A stretch of DNA of 64,000 nt from Flectonema sp. DT1601 (lineage: Eukaryota), in contig OZ025795.1 in assembly GCA_964019425.1 (NCBI GenBank), forward strand, positions 186,001 through 250,000, given 5' to 3'. This document shows, piece by piece, positions 12,873 to 55,952 of this stretch (position 1 is its first letter; each line of letters begins with the position of its first letter). The translations under genes and the position numbers were made by a program. The notes beneath the pieces are model-generated. The model did not search any database and was not told the DNA's origin. It saw only the letters and a program-made list of their open reading frames with translations.

Positions 12873-15800
12873 TTAAACAATAGTACGTAAGTGTTTATCC
12901 TTTAGAGCATCCTGTAGGATATCATCATCCTGTTTGTTTGATTTGGTTAGTCTGACGATAGTACTAAAGTAGGAATCAAATACAACAGAGAGACTAATGG
13001 CAAACATCTTCCGAGGTTGTCTGGACCCACAAAACATAAAGAAGGTCGTGCAGGGGATTCGACTCGGCTATCCTTCAACAACAGGCAGGCAATACGATGA
13101 ATGGAACAACGCACTCACAACAGCGGGCAACAAAAGGATGAAGACCAGACAATCAGACAGCCCGTCGTTGTTTGTCACCAGATCTGCACCCAAAGGGAGC
13201 AGGTAAGGCATCAGCTTGCAATACGACTTTCTCATCATGTGTCTGAAATTACTTCAAAGGAGATACATCAAGAGATTCTTGTACACGTGGGTGTGCGTTA
13301 ATTCCATATCCGGAAGGAACGCGACCGTATTGCGTACTTTCTAAAAAGAGATTGGGAACTTCTTCAACAACAAAAAGGATCAGCAGAGAAGCAGGAACAC
13401 GGCAGAAAAAGCAACGCTCAGACACGAAAGCTACGTCAACAAATAGCATTCAGGTGACTCACGGTCTGCAGAACTATGAGATCGGCTTTCTATCTCGTCA
13501 ATCATTCGCGTTGCTATTTTCCCCTCTTTTCCAACTCCCACAAAAACACAGAAAAGATGTCGCACACACAGAGCTCAGACAGCAGGACGGTAGTTGCAGT
13601 TTGGTTTCATGAGTAAAGGTTGGAAGCCATCAAATATTATGATAAGGTGATCATCTTCGCTCTGAATGACGACAACTCAAATCAACGAGAAGAAGAAGAA
13701 AGAACGACAAGGAAGCACGAAGTCAGCAAGTTTTAAACCTTTTTTCAAGTCACGAGAAATCAGAAGCAAGACTGGCGTTGGAAAGGTTGTGTGTGTTATC
13801 CATCATGTGAATCATGTGAAGGAAGTGAATGTTCGAAGACCAGACAATCAGACAGCCCGTCGTTGTTTGTCACCAGATCTGCACCCAAAGGGAGCAGGTA
13901 AGGCATCAGCTTGCAATACGACTTTCTCATCATGTGTCTGAAATAAATACATAAAAAGCCAGGTGTGAGGCCTCCCACAATACATAGCACAGCAAGGCTC
14001 AAATCAGACAAAGTAGTAGTAAGAAGTTATCGTCAAATATAATCCGACATATGCTTGTTATGATATGTGATCATCATATTACTTTAGACAGTCAGTTTCA
14101 GAGAAAGCAACGCTCAGACACGAAAGCTACGTCAACAAATAGCATTCAGGTGACTCACGGTCTGCAGAACTATGAGATCGGCTTTCTATCTCGTCAATCA
14201 TTCGCGTTGCTCTTTTCCCCTTTTTTCCAACTCCCACAAAACACAGAAAAGATGTCGCACACACAGAGCTCAGACAGCAGGACGGTAGTTGCAGTTTGGT
14301 TTCATGAGTAAAGGTTGGAAGCCATCAAATATTATGATAAGGTGATCATCTTCGCTCTGAATGACGACAATTCAAATCAACGAGAAGAAGAAGAAGAAGA
14401 GAGAACGACAAGGAAGCACGAAGTCAGCAAGTTTTAAACCTTTTTTCAAGTCACGAGAAATCAGAAGCAAGACTGGCGTTGGAAAGGTTGTGTGTGTTAT
14501 CCATCATGTGAATCATGTGAGAAGTGCTGGTATTCCAAATGCATGAAAGGAATCGAAAAAGAACAACGCACTCACAACAGCAGGGCAACAAAAGGATCAG
14601 CTTGAAGGCCGAAATTACTTGAAATCAATAAAAAGGATTTTCATACGAACGAGATCTATTGGGTAATTTCTATAACATCATAAAGCAACAAACAGAGTAC
14701 CAGCAGACCAGACGTCAAGGAGAAAATAAGATAACAATACATACCAACTCACTGTGATATTGAATAGTAATGAATTCTGTTGGATCATCGCATGTGTATG
14801 GTCGAGGCCGACCAAACGGACGCTCTTTACGATCTGTTATGGGCTGGGCGTTGATTGTAATAGCTGTTGATATATCCTCAAGTACAGAAGGTGGGATTGG
14901 ATTCCCAGATAGATCTAACGAAGTTAAAGTGTGATTACTTCTCAATGTAGTCTTTAAAGCCATTCCTCCTTCTTCAGTAATTTTATTATTACACAAATTT
15001 AACCTTGTAATGTATGGATTGATACGAAGAACATCAGCAAGATACGATGCTCCCTCAGAAGTAATCAAATTAGTCGACAGATCAATAGATTCTATATGTG
15101 TGTGAGTTAAGAGACTAGTACATAAGATTCGTACTGCACTATCATCAAAGTATCTCTTTCCATCCCATCTACTGTAGTCTAATGAAGTACAGCTTGGGTC
15201 ATCTGAGGTGAGTACCCTCATATCTCTCTTTAATAACACAGATTGGTTATTTATCATGAGAGCGTATTGCAATTCTTCAAGTGCGCCTTCTGAAATATTA
15301 TTATCAGAGACTGAAACTTTCCAAACTACGTCGTTAATGGCTAGGGCAGAAACCAGTGCTTTGATACCTGTTTTTTTTTTTTTTTTTTGAAACTAAGAAA
15401 GAGTAACATCGAAAAAAAAAAAAGAACAATAAATATACCCTTATCATCAAACTTGTTGTTTGAGAGAGAGAGTCCAGCGATGGTGGTATTTTCTTCTAAC
15501 ATGTCAGCAAGGTATCCAACCCCAACACTAGAAATCTCATTCCGACTTAAATCAACATCAGTAACTGTTATGTTGTCTCGCAGCGCAATTGCTAAGATTC
15601 TACAAGAGACGTCCCCATACAACTTTCTAGGACCACTAGTAGATGGTTCTTGACTAGCACTTCCACGTGACATATCAAGTGTAGTAAGTGATTCAACACT
15701 CGAATATATTGAAGGCAGTGTTCTCTTTAGAGTGAGTGGCTGACTGTTTAAAGCGATGACATCATCCAGCTGGTGGAACAGATTCTTTGCAACGTCATTT

Positions 15801-18103
15801 CCTTCAGCATTTAGAGAGACTAAAACGTCATTTACTTGAAGTGCTTCAATTAAGGCTTCTACTCCACTGTCACCTGTTTTGTTAATTGTTATTGTTGTGT
15901 GCAAATTTTTATGAAGATGAGGAAAACGAGTCATACCAATTCCATTATCGTCAAGGTTCAGTCTAACTAATGATCTATTCTGACGTATAGTTGCTGCGAG
16001 GTATTGACATCCCAGATCACCAATGGTGTTTCCAGCAATATTAAGTTCTGTTAAAGTGTTGTTATGAAGAAGGTATTCAGAGAGTGCTTTCGCGCCATCG
16101 ACTTCGAACGTGTTGTTAGATAAATCGATACTGATAATAGTCTCATTCTCTTTTAATTCATGACATAGAATGATTACAGCTGTGTCGTCGTAGTACTTAC
16201 CATCTGCTAGACTACCTAATTGTAAGTCGGTAAGTGTTGGATCTCCACCTCGTAATCGAGGAGCCATTTGTTTTAGTGACACTGGCTGTGTATTAATCGC
16301 ACAGGCAATTTGAATACTATTTTGCAATTCTTGAGAAATTTTATTTCTCCCACAAGATATCGACAACAGCGTGTTATTCACTTTCAATACCGACAACAAC
16401 GCATTTCCTCCAGCCTCAGCAATGTTATTTCCCTTAACATCGAGCTTTGTAAGAGTAGTATTGCCCTTTAAGCATTCAGACAAGGCAATTATTCCCCTGT
16501 CAGAAATGCTATTATAAGCTAGTAATAAAGTGTGAATTGATCTGTTGTCTTGCATAACGTTTGCTAAATGTCGAATACCGATATCACCGACACTGTTGTC
16601 GCTTAGATTTAGAATCTGAACCTGACTGTTAACCTGAAGAGATCTACATAAAATCATAACTGAATCATCATTGTGATATCTGGACCCGTCATACTCACTG
16701 AAGTCTAAGCGTGTTAGATTCTCTTCATTTGATTCTAATTTCGGTAACACCAATTTCAAAGCAATCGGTTGCAAATTTATAAACAAAGTGTCTTCTAAAG
16801 CGAACATCAATTGGTTACTTACCTCATTCAGTTCTAGGTTTACTGATTTTAGAGAATCATTTGTACCCAGAGACTTGATAAACTGCAACGCACCATTGTC
16901 ACCAATTTCATTATTAGCAAGATTTAAGTCAGTCAGTGAGACATTATCTTTTATTGCGATGGCAATGGCTTCTCCCCCAGCAACAGTTATGTTATTATTT
17001 GGTAGTTGAAGGCTTACAAGTACACGATTTTGTCTGATAACCGTAGCGATGTCAAGAGCACCTTCATCACGAATATGATTATTCGATAAATTTAAAGTCT
17101 GAACTGTCGTGTTTGCCCTCAGTGCAGCTGATAGAATACTTGCGGATCTTGTCATTTCTGATATGCATGAAAAATCAATTGCTTCTAATGTTGGATCGTT
17201 TGCTTGTGTTCTTTGAAGAGCTTTCTTTAATTGTAATGGCTGGCTATTTAACAACAACGCCTTCGATAACAACTCAAGTGCTCCTTGAGAAACAGCATTG
17301 TCACTTAAATCTAAATTCGTTATCTGATCATTTATTTTTAATGTTTCAACAAAAATTCGAGAAGCGTCATCACCAATCTTATTCTTCCTAAGTGTGAGGG
17401 ATACCAATGATGTATTTTTTCGTAACGCATCTCCAAGATCACGAACACCGTGTAGACCAATACCATTATTTGACAAGTTCAAGTCCGTGATAGATTCACT
17501 TTTCCTCAGTAATCCCGAGATTAATTCAGCACCTTTATCCTGTGTGCCTACATTCGCAAGTGATAATGTTGACAATTGCGTGTTGTATTTTAAAACGTCG
17601 GCAACGAGTTGACAGCTTAGATTACAACCACCGTATTGTGACAAGTCAAGTGTTGTTAAATTGGGATCGTTGTTTACCAGTTGAGGCATTGCTTGTTTTA
17701 GTGCGAGTGGTTGAGTATTAAGAAGACATTTACTGTTGATTGACTCAAGTAGTTTTGGTGATACTTGGTTCATCTCAACGTGAAGTGCTTTCAAGCTGTT
17801 GTTTATTTCAAGTATAGATTCTAACTGTTGTGCTCCTGCATCTTGCAATCGATTGTTCTCAAGATTAAGTTCTGTTAACGATCCGTTTTCTCTGAGAGCT
17901 TCAGCTAAAAACTCACCAGCAACAGCAGTTAGTTTGTTGCTTTGTAAATCTAATACTGTTAGTGTTGTGCTATGTTTCAATGCATCACAAACTTGTTGAC
18001 ATTGTAGATCATCAAGCCCTCTACTTGATAATGAAATCTCTTTGTGAGACTCGTCATTTGCGAGGATCTGCTGAATAGCTGATTCCAAACTAGTCGCAAA
18101 CAT
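12873..18103 (-). CDS. RNI-like/tropomodulin-like leucine-rich repeat protein with ~7 tandem LRR modules
   Basis: ORFs 15341-18103 and 14715-15272 have LxxLxLxxNxIxxxG repeats. Introns 15874-15936, 15368-15438 and 12930-14744. Last exon DDDILQDALKDKHLRTIV* (12929-12873) is in frame after the array-containing intron. Confidence 0.85.
12996..14682 (-). ncRNA. snoRNA array 1 (intronic in the LRR gene); modules in + order E F G A B C F H A B C D
   Basis: Near-identical copies of the box C/D and AGA-box modules, lying within intron 12930-14744. Confidence 0.85.
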
Positions 18104-55400: not shown

Positions 55401-55952
55401 TTCGAAGACCAGACAATCAGACAGCCCGTCGTTGTTTGTCACCAGATCTGCACCCAAAGGGAGCAGGTAAGGCATCAGCTTGCAATACGACTTTCTCATC
55501 ATGTGCCTGAAATTACTTCAAAAGGAGATACATCAAGAGATTCTTGTACACGTGGGTGTGCGTTAATTCCATATCCGGAAGGAACGCGACCGTATTGCGT
55601 ACTTTCTAAAAAGAGATTGGGAACTTCCTCAACAACAAAAAGGATCAGCAGGGAAGCAGGAACACGGCAGAAAAAGCAACGCTCAGACACGAAAGCTACG
55701 TCAACAAATAGCATTCAGGTGACTCACGGTCTGCAGAACTATGAGATCGGCTTTCTATCTCGTCAATCATTCGCGTTGCTATTTTCCCCTTTTTTCCAAC
55801 TCCCACAAAACACAGAAAAGATGTCGCACACACAGAGCTCAGACAGCAGGACGGTAGTTGCAGTTTGGTTTCATGAGTAAAGGTTGGAAGCCATCAAATA
55901 TTATGATAAGGTGATCATCTTCGCTCTGAATGACAACAACTCAAATCAACGA
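52465..55952 (-). ncRNA. snoRNA array 5 (intergenic); modules A B C D E F G A B C F H A B C F H A B C F G A B
   Basis: Same modules, ~24 kb away from array 4. It ends just upstream of a TTCTCTTTTCAG acceptor (~52448). Confidence 0.85.

What the first reader, a model, noticed from the sequence alone, without database searches (positions are those of the whole stretch)
12996..55952. Five dispersed, modular polycistronic snoRNA arrays (~85 guide copies) hidden as repeats
Seen: eight recurring modules, all on the gene strand. Six have terminal stems and C/D'/D boxes, and two are single hairpins with an AGA box. Manual counts: A16, B16, C13, D7, E7, F12, G7, H7. Established: seven modules have antisense elements that match conserved rRNA motifs at the expected +5 or 14-16 nt spacing, and tandem snoRNA clusters are known in trypanosomatids and Euglena. 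Inference: one cassette has spread over a >40 kb gene neighbourhood and is interleaved with unrelated protein genes. I am not aware of this arrangement being described in diplonemids.
Basis: partly seen in the sequence, partly recalled or inferred. Interest (0 to 1): 0.9.

Follow-up and report, generated by a model that had tools for sequence, protein, structure and literature searches.

The report
Guide-RNA arrays inside diplonemid introns
Five repeat blocks in this marine flagellate's genome are arrays of 83 near-identical genes for eight small RNAs that likely guide chemical modification of ribosomal RNA, and two of the blocks sit inside predicted introns of ordinary protein genes, a layout known from plants and algae that I did not find described for this group.

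Summary
Confirmed and extended. The genome is a diplonemid. All six C/D modules have at least one guide that pairs with euglenozoan rRNA at the +5 position better than shuffles (proxy rRNAs only, not the organism's own). The two AGA-box hairpins are weaker: G has a plausible but non-significant target, H has none. Cores vary less than spacers and all 13 C-A-B units differ, which argues against misassembly. New: arrays 1 and 4 (29 copies) lie inside 1.8- and 2.8-kb GT-AG introns; the flanking exons join in frame and match single homologous proteins. A third intron (48298-48746) holds two copies each of two further AGA-type candidates. Arrays 2, 3 and 5 look intergenic. So one cassette occupies both trypanosome-like and intronic positions. 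Repeated clusters (trypanosomes, Euglena) and intronic clusters (rice, algae, fly) are known; ten literature searches showed neither for diplonemids, but one key supplement was unreadable. This scan noted similar intronic tandem arrays earlier in Euglena-like DNA. No reads were available: expression and splicing are untested.

The parts
12996..14681 (-). Array 1: F C A B D E C A B G E + truncated H (11 full copies; the first F has a changed C box); inside the last intron of the LRR gene
12930..14744 (-). Predicted GT-AG intron, 1815 nt, phase 0, hosting array 1
   Evidence: (donor top 0.6%, acceptor top 0.2% of window sites)
12873..12929 (-). Last exon of the LRR gene (18 codons + stop), carrying the C-terminal motif of the homologues
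14745..18103 (-). Upstream exons of the LRR_6-repeat host gene (short introns 15368-15438 and probably 15874-15936)
18287..20275 (-). Array 2: E C A B D A B G E H F C A B (14 copies); no strong cis donor upstream, probably intergenic (a 5'-UTR intron of the LRR gene is not excluded)
21289..23686 (-). Array 3: fragment of A + B G E H F C A B D E H F C A B D (16 copies); probably intergenic
25926..28557 (-). Array 4: C A B G E H F C A B D E H F C A B G (18 copies); inside an intron of the DIPPA_19705-like gene
25846..28638 (-). Predicted GT-AG intron, 2793 nt, phase 0, hosting array 4
   Evidence: (donor top 0.2%, acceptor top 1.1%)
28639..30423 (-). First exon of the Q-rich host gene, homologous to D. 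papillatum DIPPA_19705 residues 158-299
25088..25845 (-). Second (25762-25845) and third (25088-25693) exons of the same gene, homologous to DIPPA_19705 residues 457-484 and 484-680
52516..55945 (-). Array 5: A B G E C A B D E C A B D E C A B G E H F C A B (24 copies), between the SPFH gene and a small acidic-protein gene; probably intergenic
26230..26309 (-). Module A (example), C/D, 80 nt; D guide pairs with a conserved LSU site
26073..26160 (-). Module B (example), C/D, 88 nt; D' guide pairs over 17 nt with kinetoplastid 5.8S rRNA
26384..26467 (-). Module C (example), C/D, 84 nt; D' guide to the LSU site equivalent to yeast Am1133 (snR61/U38)
27016..27089 (-). Module D (example), C/D, 74 nt; D' guide to SSU A28 (snR74/U27)
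26860..26944 (-). Module E (example), C/D, 85 nt; D guide to the SSU site equivalent to yeast Cm1639 (snR70/U43)
26557..26641 (-). Module F (example), C/D, 85 nt; D' guide to SSU and D guide to LSU
28025..28091 (-). Module G (example), single hairpin + AGA box; candidate target U in the peptidyl-transferase region of LSU (not significant)
26677..26734 (-). Module H (example), hairpin + AGA; no target found; its 3' side varies between copies
48298..48746 (-). Predicted 449-nt GT-AG intron of an FG-repeat (nucleoporin-like) gene holding a 182-nt tandem duplication
48629..48702 (-). AGA-type candidate I, copy 1 (copy 2 at 48447-48520); 12 Watson-Crick pairs around an LSU helix-69 U
48541..48608 (-). 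AGA-type candidate J, copy 1 (copy 2 at 48359-48426); weak SNORA71 likeness, target ambiguous

Best explanation
The five arrays are amplified, reshuffled copies of one eight-gene cassette that likely encodes rRNA-modification guide snoRNAs, and two of the arrays lie in predicted cis-spliced introns of protein genes while the other three are likely intergenic. Shown by sequence: the modules, their boxes, their order grammar C-A-B-(D or G)-E-(H-F), pairing of the C/D guides with proxy rRNA, and exon colinearity across arrays 1 and 4. Inferred: the whole neighbourhood is read as one polycistronic transcript; arrays 1 and 4 come out as spliced introns, arrays 2, 3 and 5 as pieces between polyadenylation and trans-splicing sites; an endonuclease would cut the spacers and exonucleases would trim to the protein-protected ends; the C/D RNAs would direct fibrillarin 2'-O-methylation and the AGA hairpins Cbf5 pseudouridylation. 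Inferred spread: DNA-level duplication into any transcribed, same-strand non-coding space, with continuing exchange between arrays and erosion of array ends.
For: Guides: against 5 kinetoplastid rDNAs, shuffles reaching the observed score were 0/200 for B-D', 6/200 for D-D', 8/200 for A-D; against L103, a euglenozoan rDNA sister to kinetoplastids, 0/200 F-D, 1/200 each for C-D', D-D', F-D', 5/200 E-D. The matched nucleotide is at +5 and three sites correspond to conserved methylations (Am28, Cm1639, Am1133; table in PMC8817022). All 16 weak Rfam matches in array 4 are snoRNA families on the minus strand. Constraint: 12 of 612 core columns vary against 50 of 660 spacer columns, p 3e-6. Introns: in-frame joins; splice sites in the top 0.2-1.1% of window GT/AG sites; of 607 downstream AGs only 12930 restores the homologues' C-terminal motif, score 111 against 31 for the next; one D. 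papillatum protein matches exons on both sides of array 4 in order. Exchange: C-A-B units are no closer within than between arrays (8.3 vs 8.2 differences, p 0.54).
Against: The organism's own rRNA was not available. 6 of 12 guide positions are not significant against L103 and 8 of 13 have more than 8/200 shuffles against kinetoplastids. E-D is circular and A-D, because those loci were fetched with that target. G is not significant (16/100) and H has no target; a stricter pocket search did not enumerate the G and I geometries and so did not recover those sites. No module reaches an Rfam cut-off. C boxes of A, B, C deviate and C and F lack a clear terminal stem. Spacers contain microsatellites and homopolymers, which inflates their variability. 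The splice model was trained on 15 hand-picked introns. No expression or splicing was observed.
Confidence: 0.76

Rival explanations
1. The modules are true snoRNA genes, but most of the 83 copies are neutral passengers of a spreading repeat; only a few are processed, and the intronic ones are discarded with the intron.
For: Copy number is far above need; copies are young and homogenised, so low core variation could reflect gene conversion; array ends are eroded (truncated H, fragment of A, changed C box of the first F).
Against: Cores are 4-fold less variable than adjacent spacers that share the same history; the last G of array 4 keeps its AGA box in place while its flanks have changed; intronic arrays are as intact as intergenic ones.
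Confidence: 0.12
2. Arrays 1 and 4 are not spliced out: they are independent trans-spliced snoRNA units that have split the LRR and Q-rich genes, as in the first reader's picture.
For: The unspliced LRR frame reaches a stop 9 codons past the donor and could give a nearly full protein; the protein collection holds the last exon of the Q-rich gene as a separate 197-aa call (P0205); introns of 1.8 and 2.8 kb are far longer than the window's 63-230 nt introns.
Against: The downstream exons are intact, in frame and carry the conserved parts of the homologues; both ends have strong cis-type signals, no site inside the arrays scores as well; D. papillatum has introns up to 72 kb (PMC10161547).
Confidence: 0.07
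3. The dispersal is an assembly artefact of one collapsed tandem snoRNA locus.
For: Copies are 94-100% identical and no reads could be laid on them.
Against: 13 of 13 C-A-B units differ; the longest exact match between arrays is 283 nt; module orders differ, with a unique D-A junction in array 2; array ends fade into decayed spacer and leave splice signals and exons intact.
Confidence: 0.05

Closest known systems
Trypanosomatid snoRNA clusters (T. brucei, L. major; PMC3273796 and PMC2613932, passages read)
   Same: Mixed C/D and single-hairpin AGA-box guides in repeated polycistronic clusters on the strand of the surrounding protein genes.
   Different: [quoted passage not shown] Here the same cassette also sits in predicted cis-introns, and the module order is reshuffled between five nearby loci.
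Euglena gracilis clustered, multi-isoform snoRNA genes (Moore and Russell 2012, seen only as cited in PMC7671301 and PMC2784804)
   Same: Clustered, polycistronic, multi-copy guides; single-hairpin pseudouridine guides.
   Different: The passages I could read describe no intronic location; the primary papers were not available to check. This scan's earlier notes report intronic tandem arrays in Euglena-like DNA (unchecked).
Intronic snoRNA gene clusters of rice, Drosophila, Chlamydomonas and Ostreococcus (passages and reference titles in PMC2780460, PMC7671301)
   Same: Several different snoRNAs in one spliceosomal intron, needing endonucleolytic release after splicing.
   Different: Different supergroup; here 11 and 18 guides per intron, hosts are not ribosome-biogenesis genes, and the same cassette is both intronic and intergenic.
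SNORD27/snR74 (RF00086), snR61/U38 clan CL00051 (snoZ223, RF00135), U43/snR70
   Same: Same target sites (SSU A28; LSU Am1133 equivalent; SSU Cm1639 equivalent); module D shares the SNORD27 guide and D' context.
   Different: All scores are below the Rfam gathering thresholds (31 bits against 52 for SNORD27); U43/snR70 was not hit in Rfam and is named by target only.

Membership tests
Box C/D methylation-guide snoRNA (modules A-F) | Box C (RUGAUGA) near the 5' end and box D (CUGA) at the 3' end, 70-100 nt apart | tested here: met
   D box exact in 6 of 6; C box exact in 3 of 6 and one mismatch in 3 of 6; lengths 74-88 nt
Box C/D methylation-guide snoRNA (modules A-F) | 10-21 nt antisense element just upstream of D or D', target at +5 | tested here: met
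   6 of 6 modules have one guide at 0-8 of 200 shuffles in a non-circular test on proxy rRNA; the second guide of A, B, C, D and E is not significant
Box C/D methylation-guide snoRNA (modules A-F) | Terminal stem flanking the C/D kink-turn | tested here: inconclusive
   Clear in A (by eye), B, E; weak in D; not evident in C, F
Box C/D methylation-guide snoRNA (modules A-F) | Complementarity to the organism's own rRNA; fibrillarin binding; methylation at the site | not testable with these tools
   No genome and no run listed
Euglenozoan single-hairpin AGA-box pseudouridine guide (G, H, I, J) | One hairpin of 57-91 nt followed by an unpaired AGA box | tested here: met
   G, I, J fold so; in H the minimum-energy fold pairs the AGA, so H is doubtful
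Euglenozoan single-hairpin AGA-box pseudouridine guide (G, H, I, J) | Bipartite pocket pairing around a target U, 13-16 nt from the AGA box (rule from PMC2613932) | tested here: inconclusive
   I: 12 bp, distance 14, 1 of 100 shuffles; J: 4 of 100 at 15; G: distance 14 but 16 of 100; H: none in range; not reproduced by the stricter search
Rfam SNORD27 (RF00086), module D | Score at or above the gathering threshold | tested here: not met
   31 bits against 52, E 0.012: works like SNORD27, not filed as a member
Intronic snoRNA cluster | Cluster bounded by GT and AG sites whose use joins a reading frame homologous to one protein | tested here: met
   Arrays 1 and 4; the 48 kb intron by frame and consensus only; arrays 2, 3, 5 do not meet it
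Intronic snoRNA cluster | Splicing of the host intron and release of mature RNAs shown in RNA | not testable with these tools
   No RNA holder listed
Retroposed snoRNA element | Target-site duplication and poly(A) tail | tested here: inconclusive
   No poly(A) tail at the five 3' ends; longest shared word in 45-nt AT-rich flanks 0-7 nt; ends are eroded

The most novel reading that the evidence does not exclude
Diplonemids carry a mobile polycistronic snoRNA cassette that colonises both outron-like spacers and cis-spliced introns of unrelated genes, so one guide set is made by two routes (after trans-splicing and after cis-splicing) in the sister group of kinetoplastids. The still unidentified euglenozoan cluster endonuclease would then have to spare unspliced host pre-mRNAs, tying snoRNA output to host-gene splicing; the invariant, box-less E-H hairpin may be its signal or a ninth RNA.
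Probability: 0.35. Interest if true: 0.72.

Novelty: new variant of a known kind. Interest (0 to 1): 0.52.

Why it matters
It gives a first set of candidate rRNA-modification guides for diplonemids, an abundant marine group for which my searches showed no snoRNA description, and it shows a gene arrangement between the trypanosome type (repeated polycistronic clusters) and the plant or algal type (clusters in introns). Having the same cassette in both settings side by side makes a direct comparison of the two maturation routes possible. It also matters for annotation: repeat masking and gene callers split the host genes at these arrays.

Tried and rejected
No whole genome is held. No sequencing run was listed for the LRR gene, so no reads were laid; this is no evidence either way. 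Rfam at gathering level: 0 matches in the window. The SSU pattern found 0 viral contigs; of the 7 viral loci, 4 were scanned and none held rRNA. A word-indexed search with the last exon of the Q-rich gene found nothing; the full HMMER search found P0206. My recalled idea that this exon is Moonraker-like got no Pfam support and is dropped. A BspA-like look of a 42-codon fragment at 20750-20875 got no Pfam match. The small ORF at 24643-24873 was examined as a possible host of array 3: no Pfam or Atlas hit and no strong donor. My first boundaries for module H were wrong, covering the E-H spacer hairpin, and were corrected. No target for H in 6 distinct proxy rDNAs; spliced-leader and snRNA targets could not be tested for lack of sequence. 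A scan for further C/D guides outside the arrays (130 C-D pairs on both strands) gave two hits inside coding regions, taken as chance. The C-D' hit (11/200) is at an SSU site in one locus only and is not counted as support.
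Full report
Observation. A self-comparison shows five repeat-rich blocks. One reference copy per module gave 84 near-full matches and one fragment, all on the minus strand, 94-100% identical. Orders are FCABDECABGE(H), ECABDABGEHFCAB, (A)BGEHFCABDEHFCABD, CABGEHFCABDEHFCABG and ABGECABDECABDECABGEHFCAB: permutations of C-A-B-(D or G)-E-(H-F), with one unique D-A junction. The arrays cover about 12.1 kb.

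Organism. The SPFH protein is 68% identical to a Flectonema neradi protein and about 50% to Lacrimia, Diplonema and Rhynchopus proteins. All long ORFs are on one strand, and the short introns have GTATG-type donors and A-rich CAG acceptors, as described for Diplonemidae (PMC12621601, section 5 read). No genome and no sequencing run were available.

Are they snoRNAs? Rfam gives nothing at gathering level. All 16 weak matches in array 4 are snoRNA families on the minus strand; the best is module D to SNORD27, E 0.012, and module C resembles snoZ223 of clan CL00051. D boxes are exact in 6 of 6 C/D modules, C boxes in 3 of 6, and clear terminal stems are present in A, B and E (A by eye). For targets I used proxies. 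First, 50 metagenome contigs with kinetoplastid-type SSU; 6 were delimited by Rfam and 5 used (L038 left out: truncated SSU, group I intron). Of 13 guide positions, shuffles reaching the observed score were 0/200 for B-D' (5.8S; also for an alternative D' box of B), 0/200 for E-D (circular, the loci were fetched with it), 6 for D-D', 8 for A-D, 11 for C-D' (an off-site hit, not counted) and 22-173 for the other seven. Second, eukaryotic rDNA contaminating prokaryote assemblies; 8 loci were scanned and 3 used. L103 is sister to the kinetoplastid SSUs and lacks the 3' 40% of LSU. Against it, 6 of 12 positions score 0-5/200: A-D (circular here), F-D, C-D', D-D', F-D', E-D; the other six score 63-197. 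The two non-euglenozoan rDNAs fit worse, as expected. So each C/D module has at least one guide supported in a non-circular test. D-D' points to SSU position 28 and C-D' to LSU position 1135 of L076, which fit Am28 and Am1133 in the table of PMC8817022 (passages); equating the E-D site with Cm1639 rests on recalled context. The AGA modules are weaker. G folds as one hairpin (z -2.5) and its best site is a U in the peptidyl-transferase region at distance 14, but 16 of 100 shuffles do as well; H has no site in the 13-16 range (rule from PMC2613932), and its 3' side varies between copies. A stricter automatic search did not enumerate the G or I geometry and found nothing convincing. Cores vary at 12 of 612 columns and spacers at 50 of 660 (p 3e-6); indel columns 3 against 38, with the caveat that spacers hold microsatellites.

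Where they sit. Array 1 lies between a donor at 14744 and an acceptor at 12930. Joining them gives a 1114-codon frame (one 63-nt candidate intron left in), against 1054-1155 aa for the five best homologues, which include prokinetoplastid and euglenid proteins. The homologues end in a short conserved motif whose first half is the end of the upstream exon; of 607 downstream AGs only 12930 supplies the second half (111 against 31; anchors chosen by eye). Array 4 lies between 28638 and 25846; 2 of 10 nearby AGs give an open frame and the best-consensus one is among them. D. papillatum DIPPA_19705 matches the upstream exon (residues 158-299, E 2.5e-5) and both downstream exons in order. A third intron, 48298-48746 in an FG-repeat gene (no Pfam match), keeps the frame and holds two copies of two more AGA candidates; I pairs over 12 bp around a helix-69 U, 1 of 100 shuffles (the helix name is recalled). 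With a splice model from 15 other hand-picked introns, the six ends rank in the top 0.2-1.1% of the window's 3832 GT and 3670 AG sites, and no site inside the arrays scores above 7.3. Arrays 2, 3 and 5 have no such pair: the best upstream donors score 5.7, 4.0 and 7.2, and only array 2 has a strong cis-type acceptor downstream, so a 5'-UTR intron remains possible there. Thus 29 of 83 copies are intronic.

Real or artefact, and how it spread. All 13 C-A-B units differ, and the longest exact match is 283 nt between arrays and 393 nt within one. Units are no more alike within an array than between arrays (p 0.54), which points to exchange among arrays or to multi-unit duplications. Arrays start and stop at different modules, end in decayed spacer, and show no poly(A) tail or clear target-site duplication. 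DNA-level duplication with erosion fits best; this is inference. Long reads were not available.

Mechanism (inferred). Diplonemid genes are co-transcribed in same-strand clusters (PMC10161547, passages). In trypanosomes, cluster transcripts are trans-spliced, polyadenylated and cut by an unknown endonuclease (PMC3273796, passages). Here arrays 2, 3 and 5 would follow that route, while arrays 1 and 4 would be released with the intron and then cut and trimmed. This fits the 'constrained drift' idea that snoRNAs persist wherever they are transcribed (PMC3511168, passages).

What is known. Repeated mixed clusters in trypanosomatids and Euglena, and intronic clusters in rice, Drosophila, Chlamydomonas and Ostreococcus (PMC2780460, PMC7671301, PMC2784804; passages). 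Ten searches (listings only) showed no paper on diplonemid snoRNAs or on intronic snoRNAs in Euglenozoa. The word snoRNA does not occur in the main text of the D. papillatum genome paper or of the diplonemid intron paper nor in 7 readable supplements of the former. But its Additional file 1, with the section on structural RNAs, was too large to read, the 2018 Euglena snoRNA paper is not held, and the 2012 one was seen only as cited, so novelty is provisional. PMC11613528, PMC6366073 and PMC11028025 were read as passages and add nothing on this point. This scan's notes hold nothing for this genome or sequence but two unchecked reports of intronic tandem snoRNA arrays in another genome, one called Euglena-like.

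Verdict. It joins two known arrangements in a lineage where I found neither described: a new variant of a known kind, interest 0.52.

Noticed in passing
window 48298-48746 (-): 449-nt predicted intron of an FG-repeat gene with a 182-nt tandem duplication holding two further AGA-type guide candidates (I, J), unrelated to the eight modules.
   Followed up: yes
window 26732-26859 (-) and five other E-H spacers: The 128-nt spacer is as invariant as the guide cores (2 of 128 columns vary), folds into one long hairpin, has no C/D or AGA box and no rRNA match over 10 nt: a ninth RNA, a processing signal or the 5' half of H.
   Followed up: partly
window 52525-52612 (-): The only substitution in any B core falls in the 5.8S guide and matches the other 5.8S variant seen in kinetoplastids, so pairing is kept.
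   Followed up: partly
window 52440-52480 (-): The 3' end of array 5 is a decayed copy of the B-G spacer whose pyrimidine tract and AG look like the trans-splice acceptor of the next gene.
   Followed up: no
window 20750-20875 (-): 42-codon fragment between arrays 2 and 3 that looks by eye like a BspA-type leucine-rich repeat remnant; no Pfam match.
   Followed up: partly
window 24500-24873 (-): Small cysteine-containing gene candidate, probably spliced, with no Pfam or Atlas match.
   Followed up: partly
window 36490-36720: Short imperfect duplication (about 70 nt) in the non-coding stretch between two genes.
   Followed up: no
L103 508-4986: A bacterial genome bin holds a eukaryotic rDNA contig that groups with kinetoplastid SSU as their sister (100/99), probably a diplonemid contaminant; estimates about 121 stored stretches with this eukaryotic LSU word in the prokaryote collection.
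   Followed up: partly
window, 15 hand-picked short introns: Cis-intron 3' ends are A/C-rich before CAG rather than pyrimidine-rich, while sites upstream of start codons look pyrimidine-rich: the two acceptor kinds may be told apart by sequence.
   Followed up: partly
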